From positions 21,745 through 85,744 of the forward strand of contig VMFR01000004.1 of the NCBI GenBank assembly GCA_007376135.1: a stretch of 64,000 nucleotides of DNA, in the 5' to 3' direction. The position numbers were made by a program, and so were the translations under genes. This document shows positions 12,627-63,051 of the stretch, one piece after another. Origin of the DNA: Parcubacteria group bacterium Gr01-1014_31 (GTDB lineage: Bacteria; Patescibacteriota; Patescibacteriia; Buchananbacterales; GWA2-38-13). Numbering within the stretch: the stretch's first letter is position 1; each line of letters starts with the position of its first letter. The notes under the pieces are model-generated. The model searched no databases. It was not told the origin of the DNA and saw nothing but the letters and a program-made list of their open reading frames with translations.

Positions 12627-13361
12627 CTACACCGAGGTTTCGTCGGCGAGACGCAGGAGCGACGTGGCAACGTCGCTGGTAATTTCCTCCTTGTGGTCGC
12701 GCCGAGAAAAACGTAATCCCGAACCGACCCGAATTACGACGGTATGCCCGAGAAATTTGGGCACACGGTGGTACAGGACCTTCCGGTCCGGATCATTCGG
12801 CAGCACCGCATCGGTACCATCGACCCAAACCGGCACGACCAGCGCCTGCGTTGTTTGCGCCAGGTACGCTAGCCCTTGTTTGAGCTCGCGCAGGCGTTTT
12901 CCATTCGTGCTCTGAAGAACGGTTCCATTTCCACCCGCCGATGAAGTTCTCCCGCCCTCAGGGAACATCACGACAATACCGCCATCCTCCAGAATGCGCC
13001 GTAAACGGCGCAACGAACGCATTTGCGCTCGGACATCCCCGCGGGGGATAAACACCACGCGCGGCCGCATCCACCACCACCAGAAACCCCCGAAATTGTT
13101 CAGGTCAGGAGTGCTCCATGGGCTGAAAAGGAACGGATGCAGGAGGAACTGCCGCAGAAAAAGAACCGGAAGAATGATGGGCTCCAAGAGCGACGGATGA
13201 TTGGACACCAGGATGACCCCGCGCTGCCACCGCGGGAAACATTCCGGGTGCACCAGCCTGATGAGTCCGCGCCAACGGAGGTACCACACCAGGGCCCCTA
13301 ACACTACCCCCATCGGGTAGGTGAACACCAGAAAGTGCAGAGCTTCGAATAATCTCTTCAT
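12627..13361 (-). CDS. plsC: 1-acyl-sn-glycerol-3-phosphate acyltransferase-like (PlsC/LPLAT family)
   Basis: NHPSLLEP (HxxxxD-like block I) and FPEGGRTSS (FPEGTR block III) motifs, N-terminal TM. Confidence 0.75.
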   Translation of the reverse strand: MKRLFEALHFLVFTYPMGVVLGALVWYLRWRGLIRLVHPECFPRWQRGVILVSNHPSLLEPIILPVLFLRQFLLHPFLFSPWSTPDLNNFGGFWWWWMRPRVVFIPRGDVRAQMRSLRRLRRILEDGGIVVMFPEGGRTSSAGGNGTVLQSTNGKRLRELKQGLAYLAQTTQALVVPVWVDGTDAVLPNDPDRKVLYHRVPKFLGHTVVIRVGSGLRFSRRDHKEEITSDVATSLLRLADETSV

Positions 13362-13573
13362 GACGCCTCCTCATTGTGAAAGGTCCGCGGAAACGCAGGC
13401 GATACGTTACCACCCGGTCGATAAAAAAACAACCCCGCGCTCTCCTCAGGGGAAAAAATTCTGGAACGGAAAACTCGTGGCGACGCCGTTCCTCGTCCTC
13501 TCCCCTTTGCGCCCAATCAGGACTTTCGCCCCACACCTTTTTGGTATGGATGAGGGGTATGTCTTTTTACCTT

Positions 13574-13647
13574 TGCGCCCGGCAGGGCTCGAACCTGCGG
13601 CCTCAAGGTCCGCAACCTTGCGCTCTGTCCAGCTGAGCTACGGGCGC
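13574..13647 (-). tRNA. tRNA-Arg (anticodon read as GCG)
   Basis: GCGCCCGTAGCTCAGCTGGACAGAGCGCAAGGTTGCGGACCTTGAGGCCGCAGGTTCGAGCCCTGCCGGGCGCA has a 7-bp acceptor stem, a D-arm, anticodon loop TTGCGGA, T-loop TTCGAGC and discriminator A. No encoded CCA. A 20-bp perfect inverted repeat extends the acceptor stem. Confidence 0.8.
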
Positions 13648-13791
13648 AAAGGTAAAAAGACAATATGAGAGTACACGGGAAAAAGGTGTGGGGCAAGCCT
13701 GCGAACTTCCCGCCAACGGCGGGACGCTCTGTTCAGCGGAGCCCTGCCGGCAGGCAGCTACGGGCGCAAAGGGGAGACAACGATCGCACTC

Positions 13792-14301
13792 CTACAATTT
13801 CAATAATCGCGAGATCTGATCCAGGACCGGCTCGTCCTCCCGCCGGAGGTCTTCCGGCAAATAATCCAAGAGCGAATGCCGCGCCGTCACCGGATTCTGC
13901 GGACCCAACGGCAGGGGAAGGTATGGCTTGAACGGATTACGGAACTCCAAGTACAGATTCTTCACCTCGGGCGGCTGGTAAATGATCCAAAAACCTTTCA
14001 ACTCCTGGTAGGAATAAAAGGTTTGACCCACGGCAACGCCGTTATCGGTGATGGCCAAAACCAGCGCCTTGGCCGGCTGACGGCGCATCAGCCCAAAGGT
14101 TAAACCGAACAATACCAGTAATCCGGAGAAAAGGAAATCCCTCGTCCACACCCCGTAGGCGATCAGCAATACGGCAACGACACCGGCGATCACATACCAA
14201 CGGCGGCTGCGCGCCTGCTGGGTTCCATCGTCGCATTGCCACTGGATGATCACCCGACCGATACCTGGAGGCAAACTTGGTGACACTGTCGATTCTGCCA
14301 T
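13792..14301 (-). CDS. Hypothetical small membrane protein (two TM helices plus a PH-like soluble domain)
   Basis: ATG at 14301, 169 aa, TM pair VIAGVVAVLLIAYGVW...LLVLFGLTFGL. No confident family call. Confidence 0.45.
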   Translation of the reverse strand: MAESTVSPSLPPGIGRVIIQWQCDDGTQQARSRRWYVIAGVVAVLLIAYGVWTRDFLFSGLLVLFGLTFGLMRRQPAKALVLAITDNGVAVGQTFYSYQELKGFWIIYQPPEVKNLYLEFRNPFKPYLPLPLGPQNPVTARHSLLDYLPEDLRREDEPVLDQISRLLKL

Positions 14302-14515
14302 ATGCCAAATTCCTTACGCTGCGCGTGGACCAAAATTTCTCATCCAGGGCGGTGGGGGTGGGATTCTCTGCCTACGGCAGATCCGCCCGTAACTATCACC
14401 TATGGTGGCGGAGAACCCACGGTACCATTGCTTCCTTTTATACTGAGCGGACCACTCGGGTTTGGTACGCGAAATGTATAGGCAGTATAGAGGTTTTTCC
14501 GCTATTTTTCAAGGC

Positions 14516-15613
14516 TCACGATTGAGGCACGTGGGTCGGGGTTACAGAATTATTTTTTAAGGCATCCGCTTCTTTTAATTGAACAGTGCCTTGTAGCATA
14601 TAATATGGTGCAAATGGTGCTAGCTTCTCAATTATCACCTTGCTCTCATCGCCTGTCAGATACTCATTACATAGAATTGCCCAATCTTTCGAATTGAGGT
14701 GGCCGTAAAGCTGTCTGCGGGCAGCGCTTGCTATTGATCGGTTAATGTGATTTACATCATCCCTGGTTAGTAATAAATTGTGGCTGTTTAGAGGGATTCT
14801 CCGGAATGATAAACAATATTTCGGCGAAATCGTTAATAATACTGTGCCATTTAGAACACCACCAGCTATGTGCGGCGGACAGAACGCTGGCTCTTGGGTT
14901 ACAACAGGATTGTCTGAAGTAATGAAATGGCGATTGTGTGGCGCAATAAGTAAGTGCCATGATTTTTTGCTCATTAGAATTTCATAGATTTCCTTACTCA
15001 AATCCATTGCTTGCTTGAAATAGTGCCCTTCTCCCCCCTCCATCGTAATGGAGTATTTATTGGGGTCTTGCATAAATTTTCTCATCTCTTCAAACTCCTC
15101 GTTAGATGAGAAAGATACCCCTGCTTGTTTAAATTTTTCCCTAAGAGAATCTGGATGTTCAGTTTGAATTTTCTGTAACAATTTAATATGTCCAATATCC
15201 ATATTTTTAAGCCATTCATTAAATGATGGCCCCCGTACCCGCAGTAGGGAAACGAAGGCGGCGATATCAGAACGTTCTCTTTCTGTTGCGGGCAGATTTC
15301 CAATCCTAATTATTTCAGCAAGTACAGCGGCTACAGCACCTTCGTGCTCAGCAAATACCCCCTCCATTACCCTGGTCTTTTGGCCGGTATCCTTTTCCTC
15401 AAAAGTGTATAAATCTTTACTTGTGGCAATATTCGCAATGCTAACTAATAGAGGATTATTTCCTGGTTGATACATGTATATCTGATTACCACCTTCGTTT
15501 GCTGCAAAAAATTTTAAGTAAAATTGCGGAATCCAATGATGGCGCTTGGTGTTCTGAGCAATTTTTTCGTACTTCTCTTTAAATTCTTGGAATGACTCAC
15601 TTACATTTTCCAT
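14516..15613 (-). CDS. Hypothetical protein, DUF4238-like (N-terminal HHWIPQFYLKFF motif). Low GC, likely horizontally acquired.
   Basis: 365-aa ORF with ATG at 15613 in a markedly AT-rich segment. The N-terminal H-x-x-P-x-x-Y-L-x-x-F resembles the DUF4238 signature, but this is a memory-based family call. Confidence 0.55.
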   Translation of the reverse strand: MENVSESFQEFKEKYEKIAQNTKRHHWIPQFYLKFFAANEGGNQIYMYQPGNNPLLVSIANIATSKDLYTFEEKDTGQKTRVMEGVFAEHEGAVAAVLAEIIRIGNLPATERERSDIAAFVSLLRVRGPSFNEWLKNMDIGHIKLLQKIQTEHPDSLREKFKQAGVSFSSNEEFEEMRKFMQDPNKYSITMEGGEGHYFKQAMDLSKEIYEILMSKKSWHLLIAPHNRHFITSDNPVVTQEPAFCPPHIAGGVLNGTVLLTISPKYCLSFRRIPLNSHNLLLTRDDVNHINRSIASAARRQLYGHLNSKDWAILCNEYLTGDESKVIIEKLAPFAPYYMLQGTVQLKEADALKNNSVTPTHVPQS

Positions 15614-15644
15614 ATGTTATATAGTAGACGCAAATATTATCTAT

Positions 15645-15675
15645 GATAAGACCCAGCTATGCAGCTGGGTCTTAT
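15645..15675 (-). terminator. Strong hairpin (14-bp perfect stem gataagacccagct/agctgggtcttatc, loop atgc) downstream of the minus-strand tRNA-Ser region
   Basis: Perfect inverted repeat directly after the pseudo-tRNA/tRNA-Ser transcription unit. The flanking sequence on minus is AT-rich but lacks a clean T-run. Confidence 0.45.
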
Positions 15676-15693
15676 CCGATAAAAAGTTGTTAT

Positions 15694-15830
15694 GGCGATG
15701 GGGCAGGGATTCTCCGCCTTCGGAAGACGACCCGTAGGGTGGAAACCCACCGAACCATTGCTGGTTCAGCAGTTTTTCCGCCTGCGGACTTCGACGGTGA
15801 GCTCAGTCGAACCGCGGATCCGCCGTAATG
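15694..15830 (-). pseudogene. Degenerate tRNA-Ser-like remnant (att-type duplication), not foldable into a canonical cloverleaf
   Basis: Shares AAAACTG..ACCAGCAATGGT..TCG.TGGGTT and a GGAGAATCCC 3' block with the adjacent tRNA-Ser(TGA), but its T-loop and anticodon arm are non-canonical. Confidence 0.35.
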
Positions 15831-15841
15831 TTCATCGAGAA

Positions 15842-15928
15842 CGGAGGGGGTGGGATTCGAACCCACGATACCATTGCTGGTATAACAGTTTTCAAGACTG
15901 TCCGATTCAACCTCTCTCGCACCCCTCC
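15842..15928 (-). tRNA. tRNA-Ser (anticodon TGA)
   Basis: GGAGGGGTGCGAGAGAGGTTGAATCGGACAGTCTTGAAAACTGTTATACCAGCAATGGTATCGTGGGTTCGAATCCCACCCCCTCCG has a 7-bp acceptor stem, anticodon loop CTTGAAA, a long variable arm and T-loop TTCGAAT. Confidence 0.8.
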
Positions 15929-16022
15929 GTTCTCGATGCTATTACACCATGGAGGCGGAGAAGACCCTCGTGCAACACTCTCGCCCGCCTACCGGCAGGC
16001 AGGCCGCTGGATGCGACCTTCC

Positions 16023-16343
16023 CTAGCGCGCCACCGAATTCTTACGATCCAAAAATCTCGTGACCTGGCCCTCCAATTTATCCACTGACAGATCGAGCGC
16101 TTTATGCAGCGCGTGGCTAGTCGCCTGCGCATACCCTTCATCCCATGACGGCACCCCCAACTGCAGCGTGACCTCGAAGGCGTTGTGGTGACGGAAATAA
16201 ACGGCGTGCACCTGCAGACTGACACTGTCGGGCGGGTAGTGCGAGAGCAATTTCTCGAGCCGGGTCTGCTTCTGGTCCAAATAGGCGCGAAAACCATCTT
16301 TCGCATTCTCAGCGACATCCTGGAACGTGACCGTCACCAACAT
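16023..16343 (-). CDS. hpf: Ribosome hibernation promoting factor / ribosome-associated inhibitor A (short HPF/RaiA form)
   Basis: 106 aa. MLVTVTFQDVAENAKDGFRAYLDQKQTRLEKLL...GYAQATSHALHKALDLSVDKLEGQVTRFLDRK matches the S30AE/HPF fold pattern (AIDxxxDKLERQ-like C-terminal helix). Confidence 0.7.
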   Translation of the reverse strand: MLVTVTFQDVAENAKDGFRAYLDQKQTRLEKLLSHYPPDSVSLQVHAVYFRHHNAFEVTLQLGVPSWDEGYAQATSHALHKALDLSVDKLEGQVTRFLDRKNSVAR

Positions 16344-16364
16344 AGAAAAGAGGGAATTAAAAAA

Positions 16365-16774
16365 CGGAGAGGGTGGGATAGTTCGACGGGCTCACTATTA
16401 TTTACCGCCACTCATACTTCGCCAGGCGCAGTACTTTTACTCAACGTTTTAAGTCGAACAAATTCGCCTGCAATCAACGCTTTCTTCTTTGCAACCGACC
16501 AACCTTTCAATTGTCGCTCGCGTGTTTCTGCTTCTTGGTGGGTTGCAAAGCTCTCAGTGTAAACGAGTCGAACACCAGAAAACTTTTTTGTGAAGTTGGA
16601 ATATCCTCTCATATGTTCGTCCAGTCTTCGTTCGACATTATCGGTCATACCAACGTAAAAAGTTTTCTGGTTGCAAAAAAGAATGTAAACATGCCATAAC
16701 ATACCCCAAATTGTGGGCGTAAAGTACTGAGCCATTCGGCACTGAGCTCATGGCCGAAGTGCCTGTCGAAGTAC
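16365..16774 (-). mobile_element. Putative ~0.4-kb low-GC micro-islet at tRNA-Ser(GCT) carrying a GIY-YIG nuclease gene, bounded by a 15-nt duplicate of the tRNA 3' end
   Basis: cggagagggtgggat at 16365-16379 duplicates the tRNA-Ser(GCT) 3' end at 16774-16788. On the minus strand it is followed by TTTTTT. Enclosed DNA is ~43% GC. Confidence 0.4.
16412..16702 (-). CDS. GIY-YIG nuclease superfamily protein (UPF0213/YhbQ-like)
   Basis: MLWHVYILFCNQKTFYVGMTDNVERRLDEH...QLKGWS is a GIY-YIG core with a YhbQ-like N-terminus. The start is chosen at the internal ATG at 16702, with an alternative upstream ATG at 16735. Confidence 0.7.
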   Translation of the reverse strand: MLWHVYILFCNQKTFYVGMTDNVERRLDEHMRGYSNFTKKFSGVRLVYTESFATHQEAETRERQLKGWSVAKKKALIAGEFVRLKTLSKSTAPGEV

Positions 16775-16860
16775 GGAGAGGGTGGGATTCGAACCCACGA
16801 GGGACTTTCATCCCCAACGCCTTAGCACGGCGCCGCTTTCGACCGCTCAGCCACCTCTCC
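16774..16860 (-). tRNA. tRNA-Ser (anticodon GCT)
   Basis: GGAGAGGTGGCTGAGCGGTCGAAAGCGGCGCCGTGCTAAGGCGTTGGGGATGAAAGTCCCTCGTGGGTTCGAATCCCACCCTCTCCG has anticodon loop GTGCTAA, a long variable arm and T-loop TTCGAAT. Confidence 0.8.
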
Positions 16861-16951
16861 CCAGGCGTACTCCGTCAAGGCACGACATCGGCCGTTATTT
16901 TTCCGCGACTGACCGTTTCATCATACCAGAAACGCGGCTTCCTGTCCAGCC

Positions 16952-17665
16952 TTACCCGTGTGCCAGGGCCACGGCGACCACCTCACCGGACCCTGCGTCC
17001 CGCAACGCTTTCGCGCAGGCACGCATCGTGCTGGCGGTCGTGACCACATCGTCCACCAGCAGGACCCGGCGCGGGGCCGCACCGCGGACGACGAACGCTC
17101 CCCTGACGTTATTCTGTCTTATGCGCTGCGGAAGCCCAACCTGCGGACGGGTCGCCCGCCGGCGGAACAGAATATCCTCGCGCAAAGGCCAGCCAAAATG
17201 TTGCGCCACGGGCGCAGCAAGCAGCGCCGCCTGCTGATAGCCACGCGCGAGGAGCCGGCGGCGGTGGAGGGGTATAGGAATGACCGCATCAAATGCGTCC
17301 GACCACGCTGCTGCGTAACGGAGGTGCTCCAGATGTGCAACCAGCAGCCCCGCCAAGGGATTTGCCAGTGCCTGCACCCCGGTGTACTTCAAAGATTCCA
17401 CCGCCTTTACCAAGGTTCCCTGCCGGTACGGACAAGCCGCGAAAAGCTGCGTCAACGGACAGGAGGCGGCGCATACAAAGCACGGCCGGCCATCCGTGGA
17501 CGGCCGTAAACAACCGGGACAAAACCCGCCCGCGCACTGCCGCAGGCCACCCAGGCAGGCTGTACACAGCCAACTGCCCCGCTCCGCGCATCCGACGCAA
17601 TGGGATGGGAACAGTGTTTCCAGAATTTGCTCACGGGCCTTGGCGGCCCATCTCGGTGGGACCAC
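16952..17665 (-). CDS. comFC: ComF family protein ComFC (phosphoribosyltransferase domain with N-terminal Cys-rich zinc-finger-like region)
   Basis: N-terminal CVGC...CTAC...C..C clusters. C-terminal PRTase motif VLLVDDVVTTASTMRACAKALRDAG. Non-ATG (GTG) start at 17665. Confidence 0.8.
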   Translation of the reverse strand: MVPPRWAAKAREQILETLFPSHCVGCAERGSWLCTACLGGLRQCAGGFCPGCLRPSTDGRPCFVCAASCPLTQLFAACPYRQGTLVKAVESLKYTGVQALANPLAGLLVAHLEHLRYAAAWSDAFDAVIPIPLHRRRLLARGYQQAALLAAPVAQHFGWPLREDILFRRRATRPQVGLPQRIRQNNVRGAFVVRGAAPRRVLLVDDVVTTASTMRACAKALRDAGSGEVVAVALAHG

Positions 17666-17715: not shown

Positions 17716-18288
17716 TCACTGCCATGAGGCCCCATCGACGCGCCAGCCGGCGGTGTTCTTCAGTAGAGTCACCGTCAATTTTTGGTAAAATTGCTGCCGT
17801 CCCGCACCGGTCCGGGTTTCGGAACGCTGCGTCTGCACCACGATCTGCGCTTCCGTTTCCTCGCCGTTGAGGGCGACGATCTCGGCCGACAGTACTTTGG
17901 TCGTGACGCCGTAGAAGCCGTCACCCAGCAGCAGCTGTTGCTGAGCGGCGCGCGCCGTGGCGGCGAATTGCTCCGTCATCAACGGCTGGAGTTGCTGTAA
18001 ATTCGTGCTCCCGCCGTCCGTGGAAAAACTTCCGTAGCGTTCCGCAAAAGTCTTGGCCAGCGCCTCGAGCGTCGCCTGGGTCTTTGGCTCTTTGGTCACC
18101 GGCGGCTCCACCGGTTGAGTTACCGCGCCCCCCGCGGGCGGCAACGTCGTACCTGCCCCGGGCAAAGGGGACGGCTGCCCCAGACCCGCTGGGCGCGCCG
18201 GGCGAGGAGCGCGCGCCACCAACACCAGCGCCAACACCACCAGCAGCGCCAAGACGATTATAGTGATGATCTTCGTCCGCTTGGTCAT
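17716..18288 (-). CDS. Hypothetical membrane-anchored protein, last gene of the T4SS-like block (possible VirB8/TcpC-like NTF2-fold ectodomain; speculative)
   Basis: ATG at 18288 overlaps the virB4-like stop (ATGA). N-terminal TM IITIIVLALLVVLALVLV, a Pro-rich linker, then a ~120-aa soluble domain. Confidence 0.5.
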   Translation of the reverse strand: MTKRTKIITIIVLALLVVLALVLVARAPRPARPAGLGQPSPLPGAGTTLPPAGGAVTQPVEPPVTKEPKTQATLEALAKTFAERYGSFSTDGGSTNLQQLQPLMTEQFAATARAAQQQLLLGDGFYGVTTKVLSAEIVALNGEETEAQIVVQTQRSETRTGAGRQQFYQKLTVTLLKNTAGWRVDGASWQ

Positions 18289-20252
18289 ACGCTTTCACTC
18301 CGATTATCGGCAGCTTTCCGCGTCCCCGGAGCGCCGGTCTGCTCTTCCATCGACTGTGCAAAGTCCTTTTTCGCCTGCTCGATCTCCAACAACTGCCGCG
18401 GGTCCGACGTGATCAGCTGGTCTTCGGCGTACGACGCGACGACCTTGATGGCCGCGTGCTTGTCGCCGGCAAAGAAGATCCCCTCCCCGACGCCGCACTC
18501 CAGCAGCAGGTACTTTTCCCCGTCGGTCAGGACGAACGTTTTGGCGATGAGGTCGATGGATGCGGACGACTGACGCATCAACACCTGGATGGAACTGTTG
18601 GTGACGATCGCCGATCCATACGGCGAAAGCAGGAAATCATTGACGTCCTGGGTGATGGTGGTCACCCCCAGGTAGTACTTGCGGCAACGCTTCACGAGGG
18701 CATAGATGAACTTTGCCGAGTCCTCGTACTGCATCAGCCACCAGGCTTCATCGATGACCATGATGCGGCGCTTCAGCTCGGAGCGCACGACGTTCCAGAT
18801 ATAATTGATAATGGTGTAAATGGCGATCGGCCGCAGCTCGTCCTCCAAATCACGGACGGAAAAGACCACCAGCTGGTTATGGACGTCGATGTTGGTGGGA
18901 CTGTTGAACAAACCGGAGAACGTCCCCTGCGTGTACTTCTGTAACCGAATGACCAGGTCGCCGGACCCTTCCATGCCTTCGAGCACCTCCTGGAAGTCCT
19001 GCATGATCGGGGCCTCCACCGTGGCCAGGTCGGAATTGGCGGTGATGTCTTTCTTGGCGTAGGTTTCCAGCAGCGCGCGGTCAATGAGCGAGTCTTCCTG
19101 TGGAGAGAAGCCAAGCTTGCCCGAATCGCCGATCGGCTTGCCCAGCATGATGCGCAGCAGCCCCTTGAGCGTGATGACCGCGCCGCGGATGATGTCGCCG
19201 GCGCGCTGGTCGCCGACGGGCCGCGGCAGGTCGAACGGATTGAGTTTGCTCTCCGAAGACAGCGAAATATTGATGTACGTGCCGCCGACCGCGTCGCACA
19301 GATGCTGGTACTCGCGCTCGGGGTCGATGATGATGACGTCGGTTCCTAGCATCAGCGACCGCAGCACCTCCAGTTTAATAGTGTAGCTCTTACCGGCGCC
19401 GGAGGTCGCGAACACCACCATGTTGGCGTTCTGCAGGCTGAAACGGTCGAACAAGATCAAACTGTTGTTGTGGCGGTTGATGCCATACAGCACGCCATCG
19501 TCCGAGGTCAGTTCCGACGAAATGAACGGGAATGAGCTGGCGATCGGCGACGAATTCATGTTGAACGCGATCATCAGCATATCCTCGCCCAACGGCATCG
19601 TCGAGGTGAACCCCTGCTCGGCCTGATAGAGCACCTTGCGCGAGTACACCAGCTTGCTGCCGAACAGCGCCTCCACGTCGTCGGTCAGCCGCTCCAGCTT
19701 CTTACGGTCCTCGGCGTAGACCGTCACATACAGCCCGAACTGGAAAAAATGCTCGATCCCCTGGGTCAAATCGTCCCGCAGCTGCTCGATGTCGCGCAAG
19801 GCCGTTTCGCGAATGGGGTCGCGGGGAGCACCTTTCTCGCGGTCGGCCAGGATCTGTGCCTCAAGGTTGCCGACCCGCTTCTTTAGCTGCTTGAGGATGA
19901 CATCCGACCGCACGGGATAGAAGTACATCGAAATGTCCAACGGCAAATTGAGGTTGATGATAGGCGCGAACCACCCGACCGTAATGTACCTGGGGTACCC
20001 GATGACAAACAGCGTCCGCACGAACAGGTCGCCCAGCATCAGGAACGACGGCTTGACCTGGAAAGCCGCCGGCGCGATCAGATCCCGGATGGAAATAAGA
20101 CCTTCGCGGTAGATCCGCTCCTCCTCGAGGATGATCTTCTCCTCGGTGATCTGCCGCTGCTCCAGGCGCTTACGCTCCTCGGCCGACAGCGTCGGGGTCA
20201 AGGGCTTGGCCGCCTGTCTTTCCTCGCGTTCAATTTGCTGTGGTTTGAACAT
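18285..20252 (-). CDS. virB4: VirB4/TrbE/CagE-like type IV secretion ATPase
   Basis: 655 aa. Walker A VVFATSGAGKSYTIK. Walker B RRIMVIDEAWWLM. Overall length and architecture of VirB4-family (AAA_10/DUF87) proteins. Confidence 0.85.
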   Translation of the reverse strand: MFKPQQIEREERQAAKPLTPTLSAEERKRLEQRQITEEKIILEEERIYREGLISIRDLIAPAAFQVKPSFLMLGDLFVRTLFVIGYPRYITVGWFAPIINLNLPLDISMYFYPVRSDVILKQLKKRVGNLEAQILADREKGAPRDPIRETALRDIEQLRDDLTQGIEHFFQFGLYVTVYAEDRKKLERLTDDVEALFGSKLVYSRKVLYQAEQGFTSTMPLGEDMLMIAFNMNSSPIASSFPFISSELTSDDGVLYGINRHNNSLILFDRFSLQNANMVVFATSGAGKSYTIKLEVLRSLMLGTDVIIIDPEREYQHLCDAVGGTYINISLSSESKLNPFDLPRPVGDQRAGDIIRGAVITLKGLLRIMLGKPIGDSGKLGFSPQEDSLIDRALLETYAKKDITANSDLATVEAPIMQDFQEVLEGMEGSGDLVIRLQKYTQGTFSGLFNSPTNIDVHNQLVVFSVRDLEDELRPIAIYTIINYIWNVVRSELKRRIMVIDEAWWLMQYEDSAKFIYALVKRCRKYYLGVTTITQDVNDFLLSPYGSAIVTNSSIQVLMRQSSASIDLIAKTFVLTDGEKYLLLECGVGEGIFFAGDKHAAIKVVASYAEDQLITSDPRQLLEIEQAKKDFAQSMEEQTGAPGTRKAADNRSESV

Positions 20253-20335
20253 TGATGTTTGGGGCTAGTACCCGGTGCTCTGTGCCCAGTGCTCCGTGCG
20301 TATCGTCACCGTCGTAACTATACTGAGCACATGCG

Positions 20336-21058
20336 CTAGGGCTCGACCTGCAGTTGGTTAAGATCGGCGAGCTTCTGCCGTTCGGACGCCCCGGGGTTAT
20401 AGGTATTGTAATACAGTTCGATCAACCCCTGGGTGTCCAAGAGTGCTGCTTTCAACCCGATACTGCCCAACGACGCCACAACATGGTCAACCCGCTGCAT
20501 CAGATCACGCCGACGCTGCAAGAACCGTTCGCGCGACAGCCGTACTGACCCCGCCGCCTTGAAGACCTCGAGCAGACGCTTGAACCACCCCTTCTGCTTG
20601 TCCGACAGGGGATTATGCGGCACCACGACATAGAAACGCTTGGTCATGATCTCACCCAGCTCCACCAGCTCGGTGACGTAGTTGCGGTACTCGGCGATCT
20701 GGAGTTTCAGCAACTCATTGGTCTGCTCCTTTTCTTTCTGCTCCAAGCGCGTCAGATATCCGCTGATGTTAAGCTTGCGCGACTGAATGAGAATCTGGAG
20801 GGGAAAATCGATGGCATTCAGAAAATTCACGTAGGCCGCAATGATCGCATTTTGCTCTTCCTCCGACTTGAGCGAAAAATTGATGCTCGACACCAACAGC
20901 ACCGCCCGTAAGGTCCCGTCCTTGAGCACGACGCAATCCTCCTTGACCTCGGCGATCGGCAGATGCCGCTGCGTCGACGGCGTTTTCGCCGCCGGACGAG
21001 CCGGCAATCCGGTGGAAGCGGCGTCCTTTGCCCCTGCGGTCTTCTTGGCTTTTGCCAT
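20336..21058 (-). CDS. Hypothetical protein, T4SS-associated (between the PrgI-like and VirB4-like genes)
   Basis: 240 aa with ATG at 21058, an N-terminal Lys/Ala-rich segment and no TM. Its position suggests an apparatus component. Confidence 0.5.
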   Translation of the reverse strand: MAKAKKTAGAKDAASTGLPARPAAKTPSTQRHLPIAEVKEDCVVLKDGTLRAVLLVSSINFSLKSEEEQNAIIAAYVNFLNAIDFPLQILIQSRKLNISGYLTRLEQKEKEQTNELLKLQIAEYRNYVTELVELGEIMTKRFYVVVPHNPLSDKQKGWFKRLLEVFKAAGSVRLSRERFLQRRRDLMQRVDHVVASLGSIGLKAALLDTQGLIELYYNTYNPGASERQKLADLNQLQVEP

Positions 21059-21071
21059 ACTGTTGTGCAGC

Positions 21072-21509
21072 TCAGTCCTGGGCCGTTTCGCCCTCGTAAA
21101 CGCCGCCGGTATCCACGATCAGGGATAATTCCACCAGCCGCGAACTACCCACGAGCGGTTTATGACGGGGCGGTACGATCGGCTTGGTCGTTATTTCCTT
21201 CATCGCCAGCTGGAGCTCGGCCAGCGTCAATCGTTTGTCCCAGAGGGTCAGGCGCGGCCGCTTTATGGTTTGGATGAAATTGAGGATAAAATAATGGACC
21301 GGGCGACCGTTGATCTTGATGAACGCGAACACAATGGTAAACACCGCGATTACCAGTAACCAGAGCAGGAACAAAGTGAAATCGGAAACCTTATACGCCA
21401 GGAACACCAGCCCGCCGGACACCAGTAAAATAATGAACTGGCGCACCGTGATGGGACCGATGACCTTGTCCTCCACGTCGAGGAATTGCGGAACCACGAA
21501 CTGCTGCAT
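21072..21509 (-). CDS. PrgI/VirB3-like small membrane protein
   Basis: 145 aa. MQQFVVPQFLDVEDKVIGPITVRQFIILLVSGGLVF followed by two TM helices. It lies immediately upstream of the VirB4 region, as PrgI-family proteins do in Gram-positive-type T4SS. Confidence 0.55.
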   Translation of the reverse strand: MQQFVVPQFLDVEDKVIGPITVRQFIILLVSGGLVFLAYKVSDFTLFLLWLLVIAVFTIVFAFIKINGRPVHYFILNFIQTIKRPRLTLWDKRLTLAELQLAMKEITTKPIVPPRHKPLVGSSRLVELSLIVDTGGVYEGETAQD

Positions 21510-21613
21510 TACCGTAGTGCTAGGTACTACGTACTATGTGCAAAGTACTTTTCGTGCGCGGATGAACAACTGCCGACCGAACGCACATAGAACTTAGCAC
21601 TTAGAACGTAATA

Positions 21614-22768
21614 CTAAAACCTCAACGTCCGATTAAAATCCGCAACGGCCTCGAACTCGGCAATGCTCAGCACCGGCGTTCCGGGGGTCGCCTGCGCACC
21701 CAGCATCTCGCTGATCGGCCGCTTCTCCGCCATCGCACGACCGGCCGTCGCCGTGTACAGGTTGAATACTTCGCAGGACCGCCAGGCCGCGATTGCTGCC
21801 GCTTTCTGGGCAAAGGACTGCTGCTCAAGCAGAGCGATCTTTTCGCGTAAGTGTTCCGTGGCGCGGCGCGGATCGGCATCCAAGCGGCGGAAGTCCTGCA
21901 GGGTCATCTGACCGATCTCTTCCAGGGGACCGACCAACTGCGGCCGGTACCGCACTTCCGGCACTTGCTCTGCCGCGGGTTCGGCGGCAGGCGCGGGCGG
22001 TTCCGCCAGTCGCGGTAAAGGAGGCAACATTGCCGGCGGCGCGATGGGTAAAACTGCGGGCTCAGGCTGCAGGGACCTCGTCGGCACCAATAACGACGGC
22101 AACTCTGGCGGTAGCGCGGACGGACCCGGCGGAACGGCGACGGACGGACGGCTGATCAACGATGGACGCTTGGGCGGGGGCGGTGGTACCGTCATCCGGG
22201 CGGGAGCGGCGGGCGGGAGCGGCTGCAAGGACATGCGCCGCGGCGGCGCGATCGGCGCGGTTGAGATGGGGATGGAGGGCCCTTGCGGTATGACCCCGCT
22301 GACGTTGGCCTGCAACTGGGCGACGGCCTGGTCCTGCTGCTGACGGCTGCCCTCGCTGAACTGGCGGTAGTATTTTTCAATGACCGCAGAGGCTGTTTCC
22401 GCCTGCTCGGCAGCGAACCCCAACCCGCCGACCTTCACCGGTCGGGCCATCGCTTCGCGAGTTTCAATGGCATCCCGAATGTCTTTGAACCGCGCCAAAA
22501 CCTGGGTGCGCAGCCGTTTCTGCAATATTGGGTCGGGCAATGGCAGCGCCAATTCTTTAATGACCTGGCCAACGAACGATTCCACTGGGGATGGTTGAGG
22601 GGAAAGCGGCACGGGAGGGGATGCGAGAACCGATGGCGCGGCCGTCGGCTGCGCGGCACTGCGCCACGGCTCTACGATGCCGCCGCGCAACACCTTCAGC
22701 TGCCCATCAGCATCCTTGAAGAGTACCTCCTCGCTGCCGGTGAACGGGTTGTATACAGCCTCAGGCAT
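21614..22768 (-). CDS. Proline-rich hypothetical protein
   Basis: Long Pro/Ala low-complexity core flanked by structured N- and C-terminal regions. Start chosen at the ATG at 22768 (ORF-track start 22792 is GTG). Confidence 0.5.
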   Translation of the reverse strand: MPEAVYNPFTGSEEVLFKDADGQLKVLRGGIVEPWRSAAQPTAAPSVLASPPVPLSPQPSPVESFVGQVIKELALPLPDPILQKRLRTQVLARFKDIRDAIETREAMARPVKVGGLGFAAEQAETASAVIEKYYRQFSEGSRQQQDQAVAQLQANVSGVIPQGPSIPISTAPIAPPRRMSLQPLPPAAPARMTVPPPPPKRPSLISRPSVAVPPGPSALPPELPSLLVPTRSLQPEPAVLPIAPPAMLPPLPRLAEPPAPAAEPAAEQVPEVRYRPQLVGPLEEIGQMTLQDFRRLDADPRRATEHLREKIALLEQQSFAQKAAAIAAWRSCEVFNLYTATAGRAMAEKRPISEMLGAQATPGTPVLSIAEFEAVADFNRTLRF

Positions 22769-22779
22769 GAATAGAAGGT

Positions 22780-24072
22780 TTACGGCAACCACTTGAAAGT
22801 CTTTTCCCGCACATCAAAGTACGCCAACTTTTCATACTGATGCCGCCCGCGCTGCTTGAAGATGTTGGACAGCTGCGCTCCGACACGAGCGGCGTCATGC
22901 TCGGGCACATCCAAACGCTCCTGTAGAACGTATTGTATAAACAACTGCACCGACTGTCTACTTAACGGCTGCTGCGCAAGGGTATCCGCCGCCGCCTGGC
23001 CGTACAACGATGGCCACACGGACAGCAAATGCTGCCGCAAAGCCTGATCCTCGGCCAGCATTCGCTCCAACTGGTCGGCCTGCGCCAATAAACGCAGCGC
23101 CGCCACCGCGCGAGGCACATTCCGCGACTGTACCGCCGCGAAGAATTCGGCGGCCAATTTTTTTGGGTCATCACCGACCTTGGCCCGGATACCGGACGCC
23201 GCTTCGGTGACTGCCCGCTGGTCGGCGTCGCCGCCGCGGTAGGCGGCCACGATATGTCCCAAAGCGGGGGCCGTCACCGTTGCAGCGGCAGGCTCCGTTA
23301 TCGCTCTGCCGCCGACGCGCTCCACTACTGGCTCCAGTGCGGCGCGCTCTTCCACGATAGGCGCCTTATGCGGAAAGCGCAGCAGATCGTAGGTCTCCAA
23401 AAGCTTCGTCAAGATCTCTCGGTCGGCATTATTCAACCGTTTCACGTTGGCATCGCGCTGCAAAAAATGGGCTCGCTCCACCGGTCCGCGTTCCTGGTTC
23501 AACGGGAACGAACCGTTGTAGACCCGCAGCCAGTTCTGTACCGTCGGGTCTATGCGTTCCGGACTCTCCGGCACGGTCAGGGGCGTTTCACCGATCGTTT
23601 CCGCATTCAATCCGATCACCCGGAGAATGATATTGCTCACGTTCACCGCCAGGTCGGGCTCGCCATAGCTGATGAGCGCCGCCTGCATCCCTGAGGCCAG
23701 GTCCAACCCTGCCCGCAACGCCATCACGGTGCTGGACTGGAATACCTCCTCGACGTCGCGAACCCGCAGTACGGCGACACCGGCCACCTTCAGGAGCGCG
23801 ATGATCTGCTGCAGGCGCTCTTCATCGGTTACATCCAGGAGCGTCCGGTCCGAGGACGGGGAAAGCAGACCCTGCAACCGATGCGCCAACTGTAACGCCA
23901 ACCCCCATTCATGTGCTGCGTCCAGGTAAAGTAGGGTGGCATACAGGCGGTCGAAGGCCTTGGGCTGTTTCACCCAGCGCACGTCGACAAATCCGAACTC
24001 TTCCTCGGTCAAACCCTGATCGAGGTCCGGCTTCCGGTTCGCCAAAAAATGGTAACTCAATCGCTCGGCCAT
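22780..24072 (-). CDS. Hypothetical protein (T4SS-like block)
   Basis: ~430 aa with no recognisable motifs. Start chosen at the ATG at 24072 (MAERLSYHF), just after the upstream stop. The ORF-track ATG at 24165 would overlap the giant gene. Confidence 0.5.
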   Translation of the reverse strand: MAERLSYHFLANRKPDLDQGLTEEEFGFVDVRWVKQPKAFDRLYATLLYLDAAHEWGLALQLAHRLQGLLSPSSDRTLLDVTDEERLQQIIALLKVAGVAVLRVRDVEEVFQSSTVMALRAGLDLASGMQAALISYGEPDLAVNVSNIILRVIGLNAETIGETPLTVPESPERIDPTVQNWLRVYNGSFPLNQERGPVERAHFLQRDANVKRLNNADREILTKLLETYDLLRFPHKAPIVEERAALEPVVERVGGRAITEPAAATVTAPALGHIVAAYRGGDADQRAVTEAASGIRAKVGDDPKKLAAEFFAAVQSRNVPRAVAALRLLAQADQLERMLAEDQALRQHLLSVWPSLYGQAAADTLAQQPLSRQSVQLFIQYVLQERLDVPEHDAARVGAQLSNIFKQRGRHQYEKLAYFDVREKTFKWLP

Positions 24073-31822: not shown

Positions 31823-31835
31823 GGTTGACAGTTCA

Positions 31836-32837: not shown

Positions 32838-32842
32838 ATGCT

Positions 32843-60354: not shown

Positions 60355-60394
60355 CTGCGGAGGCGGAGGGACAACACGATGACGTCCTTTCAAA

Positions 60395-60783
60395 TTTCTG
60401 CTGCAGAACCGCGACGATTCAGCCCGGGTGGTAGAATTGGTAGATTCACCCCACACCTTTAGCCCCTTCAAAAAATATCCGACGCACAATTAGTAAATCA
60501 TCAAGCCGCGGTGGTGGAATTGGTAGACACGCATGGTTCAGGGCCATGTGATCGCAAGGTCGTGAGAGTTCGAGTCTCTCCCGCGGCAATTATCGTTGGA
60601 TATCGTCATGATAGGGGCTAAAGGTGTGGGGCAAGCGTCCCGCCAACGGCGGGATGATCGCAAGGTCGTGAGAGTTTCCCGCCACCGAGATTCCCCACAT
60701 TAATGGACGGCGGGACCCCGCCAACGGCGGTGGCGAGTCTCTCCCCGGGCATATCCCAACTTCTGCAGCAGAAATTTGAAAGG
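60395..60783 (+). repeat. Inverted-repeat-bounded tRNA cassette: 24-bp perfect outer inverted repeats and ~19-bp inner inverted repeats enclose tRNA-Leu(CAG), which is nested inside a split tRNA-Leu-like pseudogene
   Basis: Outer repeats are tcctttcaaatttctgctgcagaa (60395-60418) and ttctgcagcagaaatttgaaagga (60760-60783). Inner repeats are ccccacacctttagcccct (60446-60464) and aggggctaaaggtgtgggg (60612-60630). There is a pseudo 5' half GCCCGGGTGGTAGAATTGGTAGATTCACC (60420-60448) and pseudo 3' pieces gatcgcaaggtcgtgagagtt (60655-60675) and cgagtctctccccgggca (60734-60751). Confidence 0.6.
60505..60588 (+). tRNA. tRNA-Leu (anticodon CAG)
   Basis: GCCGCGGTGGTGGAATTGGTAGACACGCATGGTTCAGGGCCATGTGATCGCAAGGTCGTGAGAGTTCGAGTCTCTCCCGCGGCA has anticodon loop TTCAGGG, a long variable arm and T-loop TTCGAGT. 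Confidence 0.85.
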
Positions 60784-62848: not shown

Positions 62849-62985
62849 GCAGAAAAATGAGTGAAAAGTCAAAAAATGTAGTCTTCGAGCTGGTCGAGAA
62901 GCTACATTTCGGCCAACTTCTCGACTCGTCCGCCTGCGGCGGACTCGCTCGAAGTATAAAAAATCCTTTTTCTACAGTCTCAACC

Positions 62986-63051
62986 TTTGACCTCTGACTG
63001 CGGTCAAGGGTCGCAAGTCAAATGTCAACGGTCAACGGTCAACGGTCAAAT
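62986..63051 (+). promoter_or_regulatory. GTCAANN heptad array, including a perfect (GTCAACG)x3, overlapping the annotated start of the ligase-like gene
   Basis: TTGACCT CTGACTG ... GTCAAGG GTCGCAA GTCAAAT GTCAACG GTCAACG GTCAACG GTCAAAT. Confidence 0.5.

What the first reader, a model, noticed from the sequence alone, without database searches (positions are those of the whole stretch)
14345..15842. Low-GC micro-islet carrying a DUF4238-like gene inserted at tRNA-Ser(TGA), flanked by duplicated tRNA 3' ends
The 14516..15613 gene and its surroundings are ~40% GC, in a ~65% GC genome.

The 3' terminus of tRNA-Ser(TGA) (GAATCCCACCCCCTCCG) reappears in degenerate form at two places:
- 15694-15716, within a tRNA-like remnant sharing ~85 nt with the real tRNA;
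- 14348-14370 (GAATCCCACCCCCACCG), on the far side of the gene.

The two remnants are also homologous to each other. This is the classic attL/attR signature of integration into a tRNA 3' end, possibly two successive events. No integrase remains, so this is a relic or a trans-mobilised cargo.

An N-terminal HHxP-x-x-YL-x-xF motif marks the cargo protein. Proteins of this type are often found in defence-island contexts.
Basis: partly seen in the sequence, partly recalled or inferred. Interest (0 to 1): 0.65.

Follow-up and report, generated by a model that had tools for sequence, protein, structure and literature searches.

The report
Defence-gene islet at tRNA-Ser hotspot
A 1.3-kb piece of foreign, low-GC DNA carrying one anti-phage-type gene (DUF4238) sits beside a serine tRNA gene of an uncultured Patescibacterium, bounded by tRNA-derived repeats; it is the stripped-down remnant of a serine-recombinase mobile element, ordinary in kind, but it lies among unusual nested tRNA-gene fragments.

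Summary
The DUF4238 ORF (14516-15613, minus strand) has 40.4% GC against 61.7±2.8% for the window (z -7.7). It is flanked by two tRNA-Ser-like remnants, R1 (15693-15776) and R2 (14348-14432).

A sister population (flanks 93-94% identical) lacks the gene and keeps a single remnant, so this is a true insertion. A related species carries a different low-GC gene at the same spot.

The same DUF4238 subfamily follows a tRNA-Ser 3' end in seven independent Patescibacteria loci, always through one conserved junction motif. That motif also follows tRNA-Ser in viral contigs that carry a large serine recombinase (LSR) but no DUF4238. Two DUF4238 islands still hold that LSR.

The islet is therefore best read as a relic or cargo module of a tRNA-Ser-specific LSR element. 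Its cargo belongs to a family with a validated single-gene anti-phage member.

Refinements:
- The target was an older pseudo-tRNA remnant, not the live tRNA.
- R1 and R2 each carry a two-hairpin insert exactly in the T loop.
- The live tRNA-Ser, tRNA-Arg and tRNA-Leu genes each sit inside a split older copy of themselves. This nesting is unexplained.

In kind, this is a new member of a known class.

The parts
14516..15613 (-). Cargo gene: 365-aa DUF4238 protein, foreign composition
   Evidence: Pfam PF14022 E 6.2e-37 covering 1-278 of 281 model positions. PADLOC DUF4238-Pers E 2.5e-9. GC 40.4%, GC3 0.37. Closest relatives are all Patescibacteria, at 55-85% identity.
15614..15692 (-). Element left end and leader. 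It holds the conserved junction motif TAACAACTTTTTATCGG (15676-15692) and a 14-bp perfect hairpin (15645-15676), followed by the ATG.
   Evidence: The motif RACWAYYTWKTATCGK occurs once in the window against 0 expected. Among 235 loci it occurs only directly 3' of tRNA-Ser ends, including the LSR-bearing viral contigs L204 and L208. The hairpin folds at -27.4 kcal/mol, z -7.5, and covaries with L084 and L191.
15693..15776 (-). R1: 3' half (anticodon-loop nt 36 to an encoded CCA) of a superseded tRNA-Ser(TGA) copy; attL-type junction with the islet
   Evidence: Alignments. The 5' part and the insert are orthologous to the single remnant of L197. The 3' end CGCCA carries an encoded CCA, which native tRNAs of this lineage lack.
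15713..15743 (-). 31-nt two-hairpin insert in the T loop of R1
   Evidence: Read from the sequence. The same insert type is found in L197, L199 and L084.
14433..14515 (-). 3' untranslated end of the islet
   Evidence: Low-GC sequence between the stop codon and R2.
14348..14432 (-). R2: variable arm to 3' end of a tRNA-Ser-like remnant; attR-type junction. From 14356 outward it is resident DNA.
   Evidence: Homology with the empty-site contig L199 (93.8%) resumes at 14356. The trailer CTGGATGAG is shared with L199.
14367..14412 (-). 46-nt two-hairpin insert in the T loop of R2 (GGGTTC^...^GAATCC)
   Evidence: It aligns with the L197 35/36 insert once that insert's tRNA is removed: score 56.6 against 17.3±3.8 for shuffles.
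15841..15929 (-). Live tRNA-Ser(TGA), no encoded CCA, with a 10-bp leader/trailer extension of the acceptor stem (15833-15849 / 15922-15938)
   Evidence: ARAGORN and Rfam, 55.2 bits. 17-nt perfect inverted repeat I5.
15777..15959 (-). 183-nt hairpin-ended insert (TCCGCC ... GGCGGA plus a second hairpin) that carries the live tRNA and splits an older tRNA-Ser copy between nt 35 and 36
   Evidence: Sequence. The orthologous 156-nt insert is in L197. With the inserts removed, ARAGORN calls the outer copy of L197 tRNA-Ser(TGA).
15960..16003 (-). Decayed 5' half of the older tRNA-Ser copy, ending ...GGGTCTTC in the anticodon loop
   Evidence: Comparison with the 5' halves in L197 and L199.
16364..16789 (-). 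Second one-gene islet. A GIY-YIG ORF (16412-16735, 42% GC) lies between the 3' end of tRNA-Ser(GCT) and a 15-16-nt direct repeat of that end (16364-16379).
   Evidence: Pfam GIY-YIG E 1e-15. L197 has the clean empty site. GC z -7.1.

Best explanation
The islet is a stripped-down remnant, or a detached cargo module, of a Patescibacteria integrative element. That element family uses a large serine recombinase (LSR) and targets the 3' part of tRNA-Ser genes.

**Structure of the full elements**
- The order is: tRNA-Ser 3' end, conserved element end (..CCGCCA|TrACwAyyTwkTATCGG plus hairpin), DUF4238, sometimes a second gene, then a convergent LSR and the rest of the element.

**What remains in the window**
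- Only the element end, the DUF4238 gene and 83 nt of 3' sequence are left.
- The target was a resident pseudo-tRNA-Ser remnant ('R') downstream of the live tRNA. That remnant was itself left by earlier visits to this site.
- R1 is therefore a hybrid of the resident 5' part and an element-borne 3' end with an encoded CCA (attL-like).
- R2 is a hybrid of an element-side tRNA-like arm and the resident 3' end plus host trailer (attR-like).

**Present state**
- No recombinase gene remains, and both remnants have a hairpin insert at the centre of the T arm. The islet is probably immobile now, except through homologous recombination of the whole block.

**Cargo**
- The cargo most likely acts as a single-gene anti-phage defence. 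Its biochemical mechanism is unknown.

**Shown**
- Foreign origin of the islet.
- Presence/absence polymorphism.
- Family membership of the cargo.
- The recurrent tRNA-Ser link and its shared junction motif.
- The association of the LSR family with tRNA genes.

**Inferred**
- That an LSR performed this particular insertion.
- The hybrid make-up of R1 and R2.
- The defence function in this host.
For: **Foreign origin and polymorphism**
- GC 40.4% against 61.7±2.8%; GC3 0.37 against about 0.7.
- Empty site in L199, L200 and L201, with flanks 93-94% identical. The variable block is 1619 nt in the window (15975-14357) and 263 nt in L199. All three contigs have a 375-nt HPF-to-169-aa spacing.
- L197, a relative whose 169-aa protein is 88% identical, has a different low-GC 320-aa gene bounded by inverted repeats of about 21 nt at the same junction.

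**Recurrent link to tRNA-Ser**
- The DUF4238 subfamily lies 80-300 nt 3' of a tRNA-Ser or of a tRNA-Ser remnant, on the same strand.
- This holds in the window, L084 (GCT), L091 (TGA), L094 (GCT), L098 (TGA), L191 (GGA) and L196.
- More distant DUF4238 genes are not linked to tRNA-Ser.

**Shared junction motif**
- The motif is shown.
- It is unique in the window against 0 expected by chance.
- In about 2.4 Mb of fetched loci it occurs only at these junctions, and in LSR-bearing viral contigs L204 and L208 that lack DUF4238. L206 is a near match.
- It is absent from the trailers of island-free tRNA-Ser genes.

**The recombinase**
- L091 and L196 carry 73%-identical LSRs 1.4-1.7 kb beyond the DUF4238 gene.
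- L094 has the same two-gene cargo as L196 (74% identity) but no LSR, and it ends in a tRNA-3'-like remnant.
- The LSR family is abundant in Patescibacteria.
- In viral contigs the LSR lies convergent to a tRNA. Relatives at 67% identity or more lie next to tRNA-Ser.

**Make-up of R1 and R2**
- R1's 5' part and insert match the resident remnant of L197 and L199. R2's 3' end and trailer match the resident type. R1's 3' end differs and carries CCA.

**Cargo**
- Pfam and PADLOC matches.
- DUF4238 protects against T7.
- The only structural neighbour is a protein of the P2-like phage Smp131.
Against: - No LSR or other recombinase was found among the window ORFs tested. The rest of the genome could not be searched.
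- No complete element with both ends was recovered. The recombinase's crossover point and true attR are therefore unknown.
- LSRs normally leave only a 2-bp identity, whereas here 85-100 nt of tRNA-like sequence is repeated. I explain this by an attP that mimics the tRNA 3' half, and that is an inference.
- The exchange between strains covers the tRNA itself. The window lineage may therefore have received the block by homologous recombination rather than by integration.
- The match to the validated defence protein is remote (PADLOC E 2.5e-9, partial coverage).
- The fold has no solved relative.
Confidence: 0.66

Rival explanations
1. Allelic replacement by homologous recombination. The window lineage acquired the whole hot-spot block (pseudo-5' half, tRNA-Ser, R1, DUF4238, R2) from a related strain through natural transformation and RecA. 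The recombination was anchored in the conserved HPF and 169-aa flanks, or in the tRNA-like repeats. No site-specific recombinase ever acted in this genome. This reading is compatible with an LSR origin of the module in some earlier donor.
For: - Against the empty-site contig the break points are 15976 and 14356. The tRNA itself is a different allele: GGAGGGG... in the window, GGTGGGT... in L199.
- The tRNA-Arg inner segment also differs between the window and L199, while the outer parts are conserved.
- A competence-type ComF gene is adjacent.
- R1 and R2 are only about 80% alike, which is more diverged than the strains' flanks.
Against: - It does not explain why DUF4238 follows a tRNA-Ser 3' end through the same junction motif in seven unrelated genomic contexts and three isoacceptors.
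- It does not explain why that motif is shared with LSR elements.
- It leaves the first insertion unexplained.
Confidence: 0.2
2. The hairpin-ended inserts are the active agents. A small non-autonomous element has ends of the type TC-NNNN-triloop-NNNN-GA. It inserts without target duplication into the anticodon loop (35/36) or T loop (56/57) of tRNA genes and can carry a tRNA gene. This element created the R copies and also brought or trapped the DUF4238 gene.
For: - Inserts sit at exactly 35/36 or in the T loop in the window, L197, L199, L084 and L025.
- The outer copies become recognisable tRNA-Ser once the inserts are removed.
- R2's insert is homologous to the tRNA-carrying insert.
- Both islet borders carry such an insert.
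Against: - The islet's own borders are the 3' end of R1 (…CGCCA|TAAC…) and the 5' edge of R2, not the hairpins.
- In L084, L091, L094 and L191 the same gene follows an intact tRNA with no hairpin insert.
- No transposase was found.
- The empty-site allele already has the hairpin-bearing remnant.
Confidence: 0.08
3. R1 and R2 are functional structured RNAs, for example tRNA-like regulators or processing signals of the tRNA/DUF4238 transcripts, and are not recombination scars.
For: - The two hairpins keep their shape with different stem sequences in different copies.
- A 5'-half-plus-insert unit is 97% identical between L197 and L199.
- Fold z-scores reach -2.1 to -3.2.
Against: - No Rfam family matches at E up to 5.
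- In R1 the T stem and second hairpin are broken by uncompensated changes relative to L197.
- Copy number and length vary between close strains: one copy in L199, two in the window.
- On the tRNA strand the z-scores are only -1.2 and -2.1, as expected for tRNA-derived sequence.
Confidence: 0.04
4. There is no insertion at all. The gene is native with odd composition, or the region is an assembly chimera.
For: The sequence is metagenome-derived, and low-GC stretches can come from mis-joins.
Against: - Identical arrangement in independent assemblies.
- The empty site is seen in three further assemblies.
- The junctions fall in homologous tRNA-like repeats, and the gene has its own conserved leader.
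Confidence: 0.01

Closest known systems
Genomic islands integrated in tRNA genes (Islander-type islands; displaced tRNA fragment marks the far end)
   Same: - Foreign composition.
- Sits 3' of a tRNA gene.
- Bounded by direct repeats derived from the tRNA 3' part.
- Present or absent between close strains.
- Defence cargo.
   Different: - No integrase inside the islet.
- Only 1.3 kb with one gene.
- The repeats flank the islet downstream of the live tRNA, because the target was an older pseudo-tRNA remnant.
- The associated recombinase in relatives is a large serine recombinase, whereas the classical cases use tyrosine integrases (PMC4383910).
Tycheposons of Prochlorococcus (Hackl et al., bioRxiv 10.1101/2020.12.28.424599)
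   Same: - Streamlined genomes.
- Cargo elements at a few island tRNAs, including tRNA-Ser(TGA).
- Full tRNA on one side and a partial tRNA on the other.
- Successive integrations pushing older ones inward.
- Degenerate remnants and scattered partial tRNAs.
- A minority use large serine recombinases.
   Different: - Different phylum.
- No integrase and no replication module here.
- Much smaller.
- No sequence relationship was tested.
CIMEs / decayed integrative elements (att-flanked cassettes without recombination genes, mobilisable in trans by a related element; Streptococcus thermophilus ICESt1 family; from my own knowledge)
   Same: att-like repeats flank the cargo with no recombinase. Related full-length elements with the matching recombinase circulate in the same phylum.
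   Different: - Trans-mobilisation is untested.
- Both att-like sites are interrupted by 31-46-nt inserts and would probably not be substrates.
DUF4238 single-gene anti-phage system from the P2-prophage hotspot (Rousset et al. 2022, PMC9122126; PADLOC 'DUF4238-Pers')
   Same: - Same Pfam family.
- Single gene.
- Carried at a variable cargo slot next to the attachment end of a mobile element.
- The only structural neighbour found is a P2-like phage protein.
   Different: - Remote sequence relationship (PADLOC E 2.5e-9 over residues 22-239).
- Patescibacterial host.
- Activity untested and mechanism unknown.
Group I introns at position 35/36 of Patescibacteria tRNA genes (Nakagawa et al. 2026, PMC13011429)
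   Same: The older tRNA-Ser copy is interrupted at exactly 35/36, in the same phylum.
   Different: - The insert is 156-183 nt.
- It has no group I intron match in Rfam.
- It follows a G, not a U.
- It contains a complete tRNA gene.
- The interrupted copy is decayed.

Membership tests
Pfam DUF4238 (PF14022) | Profile match above the gathering score over the whole domain | tested here: met
   128 bits against a cut-off of 27. E 6.2e-37. Residues 24-305 match model positions 1-278 of 281.
DUF4238 anti-phage defence system | Match to the defence-system model | tested here: met
   PADLOC DUF4238-Pers: E 2.5e-9, 35 bits, residues 22-239. The relationship is remote.
DUF4238 anti-phage defence system | Protection against phage when expressed | not testable with these tools
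   Shown only for an E. coli P2-hotspot member.
tRNA-integrated genomic island | Foreign composition and presence/absence between close relatives | tested here: met
   GC z -7.7. Empty site in L199, L200 and L201.
tRNA-integrated genomic island | Bounded by an intact tRNA gene and a displaced 3' fragment in direct orientation | tested here: inconclusive
   Both borders are tRNA-Ser-derived direct repeats. However, the left one is a pseudo-tRNA (R1), and the live tRNA lies 65 nt further upstream.
tRNA-integrated genomic island | Integrase gene inside the island | tested here: not met
   The islet holds one ORF. No recombinase domain appears in the neighbouring ORFs scanned.
Patescibacteria tRNA-Ser large-serine-recombinase elements (defined here) | Conserved element end RACWAYYTWKTATCGK within 5 nt of a tRNA-Ser(-like) 3' end | tested here: met
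   Present at 15676-15691, unique in the window against 0 expected. Shared with L091, L196, L204 and L208.
Patescibacteria tRNA-Ser large-serine-recombinase elements (defined here) | Resolvase + Recombinase + Zn_ribbon_recom gene convergent to the tRNA | tested here: not met
   Present in L091, L196 and L204-L208. Absent from the window islet.
CIME-type cis-mobilisable element | Functional att sites recognised in trans by a related recombinase | not testable with these tools
   The att-like repeats are present but interrupted by T-loop inserts. No excision product could be sought.
Known structured RNA families (Rfam 15) | Covariance-model match on R1 or R2 | tested here: not met
   Across 13000-17500, only the three tRNA genes and chance-level hits appear at E up to 5.
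Group I intron in a tRNA gene | Intron_gpI model match within the 35/36 insert | tested here: not met
   No such hit. The insert contains a tRNA gene instead.

The most novel reading that the evidence does not exclude
In this Patescibacteria lineage, and at least one distant one, tRNA genes are renewed by a previously undescribed kind of small cassette.

- The cassette holds a live tRNA gene with long complementary leader and trailer, closed by short GC-rich hairpin ends of the type TC-NNNN-triloop-NNNN-GA.
- It inserts without target duplication into the anticodon loop (35/36) or the T loop of the resident gene for the same tRNA, and so supersedes it.
- R1 and R2 are the 3' halves of such superseded tRNA-Ser genes.
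- Their T-loop 'two-hairpin' inserts are collapsed cassettes.
- These scars then serve as landing pads for serine-recombinase elements such as the DUF4238 islet, or are inactivated landing pads.
Probability: 0.3. Interest if true: 0.75.

Novelty: new member of a known kind. Interest (0 to 1): 0.45.

Why it matters
**As a defence islet it is ordinary.** It does show three things:
- Ultra-small Patescibacteria genomes have tRNA-linked hot spots where single defence genes are swapped between near-identical populations.
- The vehicle is an abundant, highly conserved family of large serine recombinase elements whose subfamilies track different tRNAs.
- The DUF4238 defence family extends into this phylum.

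This gives a practical handle for finding cargo and defence genes in Patescibacteria: look 3' of tRNA-Ser for the TATCGG end motif.

**The unexplained part is potentially more important.** Three of the four tRNA genes in the window lie inside split older copies of themselves, with precise hairpin-ended inserts. If that reflects a mobile tRNA cassette, it would be a new way for essential RNA genes to turn over. It would also affect tRNA annotation in this phylum.

Tried and rejected
**Searches that found nothing useful**
- Rfam at a permissive threshold over 13000-17500: only the tRNAs.
- RecG-anchored scan of species-representative genomes: nothing closer than 45% identity, so no use for synteny.
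- Metagenome scan with the DUF4238 alignment: mostly distant family members with no tRNA link, which served as a negative control.
- Viral-contig scans for the two-hairpin motif and for DUF4238: no motif, and only relatives at 27% identity or less (one 44% fragment).
- Search for the two-hairpin motif as a dispersed repeat: it occurs only in the tRNA-Ser remnants.
- Promoter/terminator scan: nothing above chance.
- PADLOC and Pfam on the genes that accompany DUF4238 elsewhere: no informative hits.

**Cargo structure**
- Sequence search against solved structures: nothing.
- AlphaFold model (pLDDT 78.5) against PDB by Foldseek: best E 2.3, so no fold assignment.

**Readings considered and dropped**
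- The hairpin inserts as CRISPR repeats. Rejected: there are two copies only, with the wrong spacing.
- The hairpin inserts as archaeal-type or group I introns. Rejected: no model match, and the interrupted copies are decayed.
- Classical tyrosine-integrase attL/attR for the 5' and 3' halves. Rejected: the halves abut at 35|36 with no shared overlap.
- The LSR as the right border of the L091 and L196 islands. Rejected: in viral contigs the LSR sits near the tRNA end of larger elements.
Full report
**Source and setting**

The window comes from an uncultured Patescibacterium. The cargo protein is 100% identical to a protein of 'Parcubacteria group bacterium Gr01-1014_31'. The same locus is present in ENA and Logan assemblies.

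Read on the minus strand, the local gene order is:
- a ComF-like gene
- tRNA-Ser(GCT)
- a GIY-YIG gene
- a hibernation factor (HPF)
- tRNA-Ser(TGA)
- R1
- DUF4238
- R2
- a 169-aa membrane protein
- tRNA-Arg
- an acyltransferase
- RecG

These assignments rest.

**Checking the observation**

The ORF at 14516-15613 is a full-length DUF4238 domain: E 6.2e-37, 128 bits against a cut-off of 27.

Its composition is clearly foreign:
- GC is 40.4%, against 61.7±2.8% for 1.1-kb windows elsewhere. The lowest of those is 53.4%, and z is -7.7.
- GC3 is 0.37, against 0.69-0.73 in neighbouring genes.

- R1 (15693-15776) runs from the 3' side of an anticodon loop (AAAACTGC...) to ...GAATCCCTGCCCCATCGCCA.
- R2 (14348-14432) runs from the variable arm (AGCAATGGTACC...) to ...GAATCCCACCCCCACCGCC.
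- Each is interrupted exactly in the T loop, between GGGTT(C) and GAATCC. The insert is 31 nt in R1 and 46 nt in R2, and in both it is made of two short GC-rich hairpins.

**Is it an insertion?**

Yes. The 169-aa protein has a 98%-identical homologue on four short contigs.
- In three of them (L199, L200, L201) HPF and the 169-aa gene are 375 nt apart. The gap holds a tRNA-Ser(TGA) and a single remnant, with no DUF4238.
- BLAST puts the break points at window 15976 and 14356. The flanks are 92.8% and 93.8% identical.
- The variable block is 1619 nt in the window and 263 nt in L199.

L197 is a more distant relative whose 169-aa protein is 88% identical.
- It has the same pseudo-5' half, tRNA and remnant as the window.
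- After the remnant it carries a different low-GC gene of 320 aa with no family match. That gene is bounded by inverted repeats of about 21 nt.

The site is therefore a hot spot with exchangeable cargo.

**What moved it?**

The 24 closest DUF4238 proteins (44-100% identity) that carry an organism name are Patescibacteria. I obtained contexts for nine of them.

In seven independent loci the gene lies 80-300 nt downstream of a tRNA-Ser, or of a tRNA-Ser remnant, on the same strand:

| Locus | tRNA-Ser upstream of DUF4238 |
|---|---|
| window | R1 (pseudo-tRNA remnant) |
| L084 | GCT |
| L091 | TGA |
| L094 | GCT |
| L098 | pseudo-copy after TGA |
| L191 | GGA |
| L196 | contig starts inside the tRNA 3' end |

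Distant DUF4238 genes from soil and water metagenomes show no such link.

The junction is conserved. After ...CCGCCA comes T[A/G/C]AC[A/T]A[C/T][C/T]T[A/T][G/T]TATCG[G/T], followed by a hairpin whose stem covaries.
- This 16-nt pattern occurs once in the window, at 15676-15691, against 0 expected.
- In about 2.4 Mb of fetched loci it occurs only at such junctions.

Two of the islands, L091 and L196, carry 73%-identical large serine recombinases (Resolvase + Recombinase + Zn ribbon). These lie 1.4-1.7 kb beyond the DUF4238 gene.

L094 has the same DUF4238-plus-564-aa pair as L196 (74% identity) but no recombinase. It ends in a tRNA-3'-like remnant followed by a native-type terminator.

The recombinase family is very abundant and well conserved in Patescibacteria.

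In IMG/VR contigs its members lie convergent to a tRNA gene 0.1-2.9 kb away:
- Relatives at 67% identity or more are next to tRNA-Ser.
- More distant relatives are next to tRNA-Asp, Glu, Asn, Trp or Gln.

Three of the tRNA-Ser(TGA) cases carry no DUF4238. L204 and L208 have the junction motif exactly, and L206 nearly so. The motif was derived beforehand from the DUF4238 loci.

Trailers of tRNA-Ser genes without an island lack the motif.

The motif is therefore the end of the recombinase element, not a feature of the cargo gene. DUF4238 occupies the cargo slot between the attachment end and the recombinase.

**Reading R1 and R2**

Aligning the four remnants gives the following picture.
- R1's 5' part and its hairpin insert are of the resident type. 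They match the single remnants of L197 and L199.
- R2's 3' end and trailer (CCCACCGCC|CTGGATGAG) are also resident. They match L199, and 94% homology resumes there.
- R1's 3' end (CCCTGCCCCATCGCCA) is divergent and ends in an encoded CCA.
- Native tRNA genes of this lineage (Ser, Arg, Leu) do not encode CCA. The tRNA-Ser genes next to DUF4238 in other genomes do.
- R2's 5' part carries a different, 46-nt version of the insert.

This is the pattern expected if a circular module with a tRNA-Ser-3'-half-like attachment site recombined with the resident remnant 3' of the T loop. R1 would then be attL-like and R2 attR-like. This step is an inference.

The exchange between strains also includes the tRNA allele itself. 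The window lineage may therefore equally have received the finished block by homologous recombination. That rival differs only in where the site-specific step took place.

**Are the repeats a functional RNA?**

Probably not.
- There is no Rfam match.
- Fold z-scores on the tRNA strand are -2.1 and -1.2.
- R1's T stem and second hairpin are broken by uncompensated changes relative to L197.
- Copy number differs between near-identical strains.

**The cargo**

A DUF4238 protein from a P2-prophage hot spot gives strong resistance to T7. Its molecular function was stated to be unknown (PMC9122126). PADLOC lists it as a defence system, and the window protein matches that model at E 2.5e-9.

An AlphaFold model built from 17 sequences reached pLDDT 78.5 and pTM 0.77.
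- It has no credible neighbour among solved structures; the best Foldseek E is 2.3.
- Its only significant match is an uncharacterised protein of the P2-like Stenotrophomonas phage Smp131, at E 7.8e-8.

The subfamily has about 50 invariant positions. These include the H26-W27 region, FxTSDNP (residues 230-236) and KSWHLL (217-222). I cannot assign a mechanism.

**The unexpected context**

The remnants are part of a nested architecture.

In the window and in L197, the live tRNA-Ser(TGA) sits inside an insert together with its leader and trailer. Leader and trailer extend the acceptor stem by 10 bp.
- The insert is 183 nt in the window and 156 nt in L197.
- It begins TCCGCC and ends GGCGGA plus a second hairpin.
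- It splits an older tRNA-Ser copy exactly between nucleotides 35 and 36 (CTTG^AAAAC). The 5' half lies upstream, and R1 is the 3' half.

With the inserts removed in silico, ARAGORN recognises the outer copy as tRNA-Ser(TGA). This holds for L197 and for L025, a distant Patescibacterium with the same design.

The 46-nt T-loop insert of R2 aligns with the L197 insert once that insert's tRNA is removed (score 56.6 against 17.3±3.8 for shuffles). It therefore looks like a collapsed copy of the same insert.

Units made of a tRNA-Ser 5' half followed by a two-hairpin insert also precede the tRNA in L199 and L197, and in L084, which is unrelated and low in GC.

The same design recurs at two other tRNA genes in the window.
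- **tRNA-Arg.** The outer copy has a hairpin in the D loop. A 17-nt hairpin stands in place of the anticodon arm. The live gene, flanked by 15-bp inverted repeats, sits in the T loop.
- **tRNA-Leu.** It has 18-bp inverted repeats, the same 17-nt hairpin and a further T-loop insert.

The 5' and 3' fragments abut with no shared overlap and no target duplication. These are therefore not classical integrase attL/attR pairs.

No recombinase domain was found in the window ORFs scanned. Group I introns are known at 35/36 in Patescibacteria tRNA-Asn and tRNA-Asp (PMC13011429), but no intron model matches here.

I leave this unexplained. The most novel reading is a hairpin-ended tRNA cassette that supersedes its cognate gene.

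**A second islet**

The neighbouring tRNA-Ser(GCT) carries its own one-gene islet.
- It is a 107-aa GIY-YIG protein (42% GC).
- It lies between the tRNA 3' end and a 15-16-nt direct repeat of that end.
- L197 shows the clean empty site, and L199 has the islet.

**Verdict**

The feature is a new member of a known kind: a tRNA-linked, integrase-less defence islet. It can now be attached to a specific serine-recombinase element family of Patescibacteria.

Its interest is moderate. The nested tRNA fragments around it deserve a separate, genome-wide look.

Noticed in passing
window 16364-16789: A second single-gene low-GC islet. A 107-aa GIY-YIG protein (16412-16735) lies between the 3' end of tRNA-Ser(GCT) and a 15-16-nt direct repeat of that end. 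L197 has the clean empty site, and L199 carries the islet.
   Followed up: yes
window 13493-13783: tRNA-Arg(GCG) is nested in an older copy of itself. The outer copy has a hairpin in the D loop and a 17-nt hairpin, TCCCGCC-GTT-GGCGGGA (13708-13724), in place of the anticodon arm. The live gene sits in its T loop, flanked by 15-bp inverted repeats (13528-42 / 13680-94). This is conserved in L197. L199 has a different inner segment.
   Followed up: partly
window 60389-60782: tRNA-Leu(CAG) is nested in the same way. It has 21-nt outer and 18-bp inner inverted repeats (60450-67 / 60615-32). The same 17-nt hairpin is at 60638-54, and a 60-nt hairpin insert lies in the T loop of the outer copy (60677-60736). 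The outer acceptor stem is self-complementary (GCCCGGG/CCCGGGC).
   Followed up: partly
window 13560-13662 and 15833-15938; L070 6143-6260; L025 1303-1415: Leader and trailer of tRNA genes pair for 9-15 bp beyond the acceptor stem, with the discriminator base included in the helix. This is seen in the window lineage and in a few other Patescibacteria (Uhrbacteria-labelled contigs), but not in most of the 111 tRNAs scanned.
   Followed up: partly
L197 8842-9950: At the same hot spot, a relative carries a 320-aa low-GC gene with no Pfam or PADLOC match. It is bounded by inverted repeats of about 21 nt, AGATGTCCAACTTTGAACC / GGTTCAAAGTTCCGGACATCT, which makes it a different, transposon-like cargo.
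   Followed up: partly
L193 867-2486: A 527-aa large serine recombinase gene overlaps the 3' end of a tRNA-Asp gene by about 40 nt. A DUF4238 gene lies 7.5 kb further on, in what looks like an 11.6-kb island.
   Followed up: no
L203-L235 (IMG/VR): Subfamilies of one serine recombinase family track different tRNA genes (Ser, Asp, Glu, Asn, Trp, Gln). The recombinase is always convergent to the tRNA. This suggests a tRNA-targeting LSR radiation in Patescibacteria viruses and elements.
   Followed up: partly
window 18285-22792 and 24077-42589: A type IV secretion/conjugation-like cluster (VirB4/TraG-like ATPase, TraC-like and PrgI-like proteins) lies next to two giant ORFs of 2589 and 3248 aa.
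   Followed up: no
window 63020-63046: A short tandem repeat, (GTCAACG)n, i.e. gtcaacggtcaacggtcaacggtcaa, lies in an intergenic region. A perfect TCCGCC-TGC-GGCGGA hairpin is nearby at 62929-62943.
   Followed up: no
L137 8274-8364: ARAGORN calls a 91-nt tRNA-Ala(TGC), about 15 nt longer than usual, next to a distant DUF4238 gene in a soil metagenome contig.
   Followed up: no
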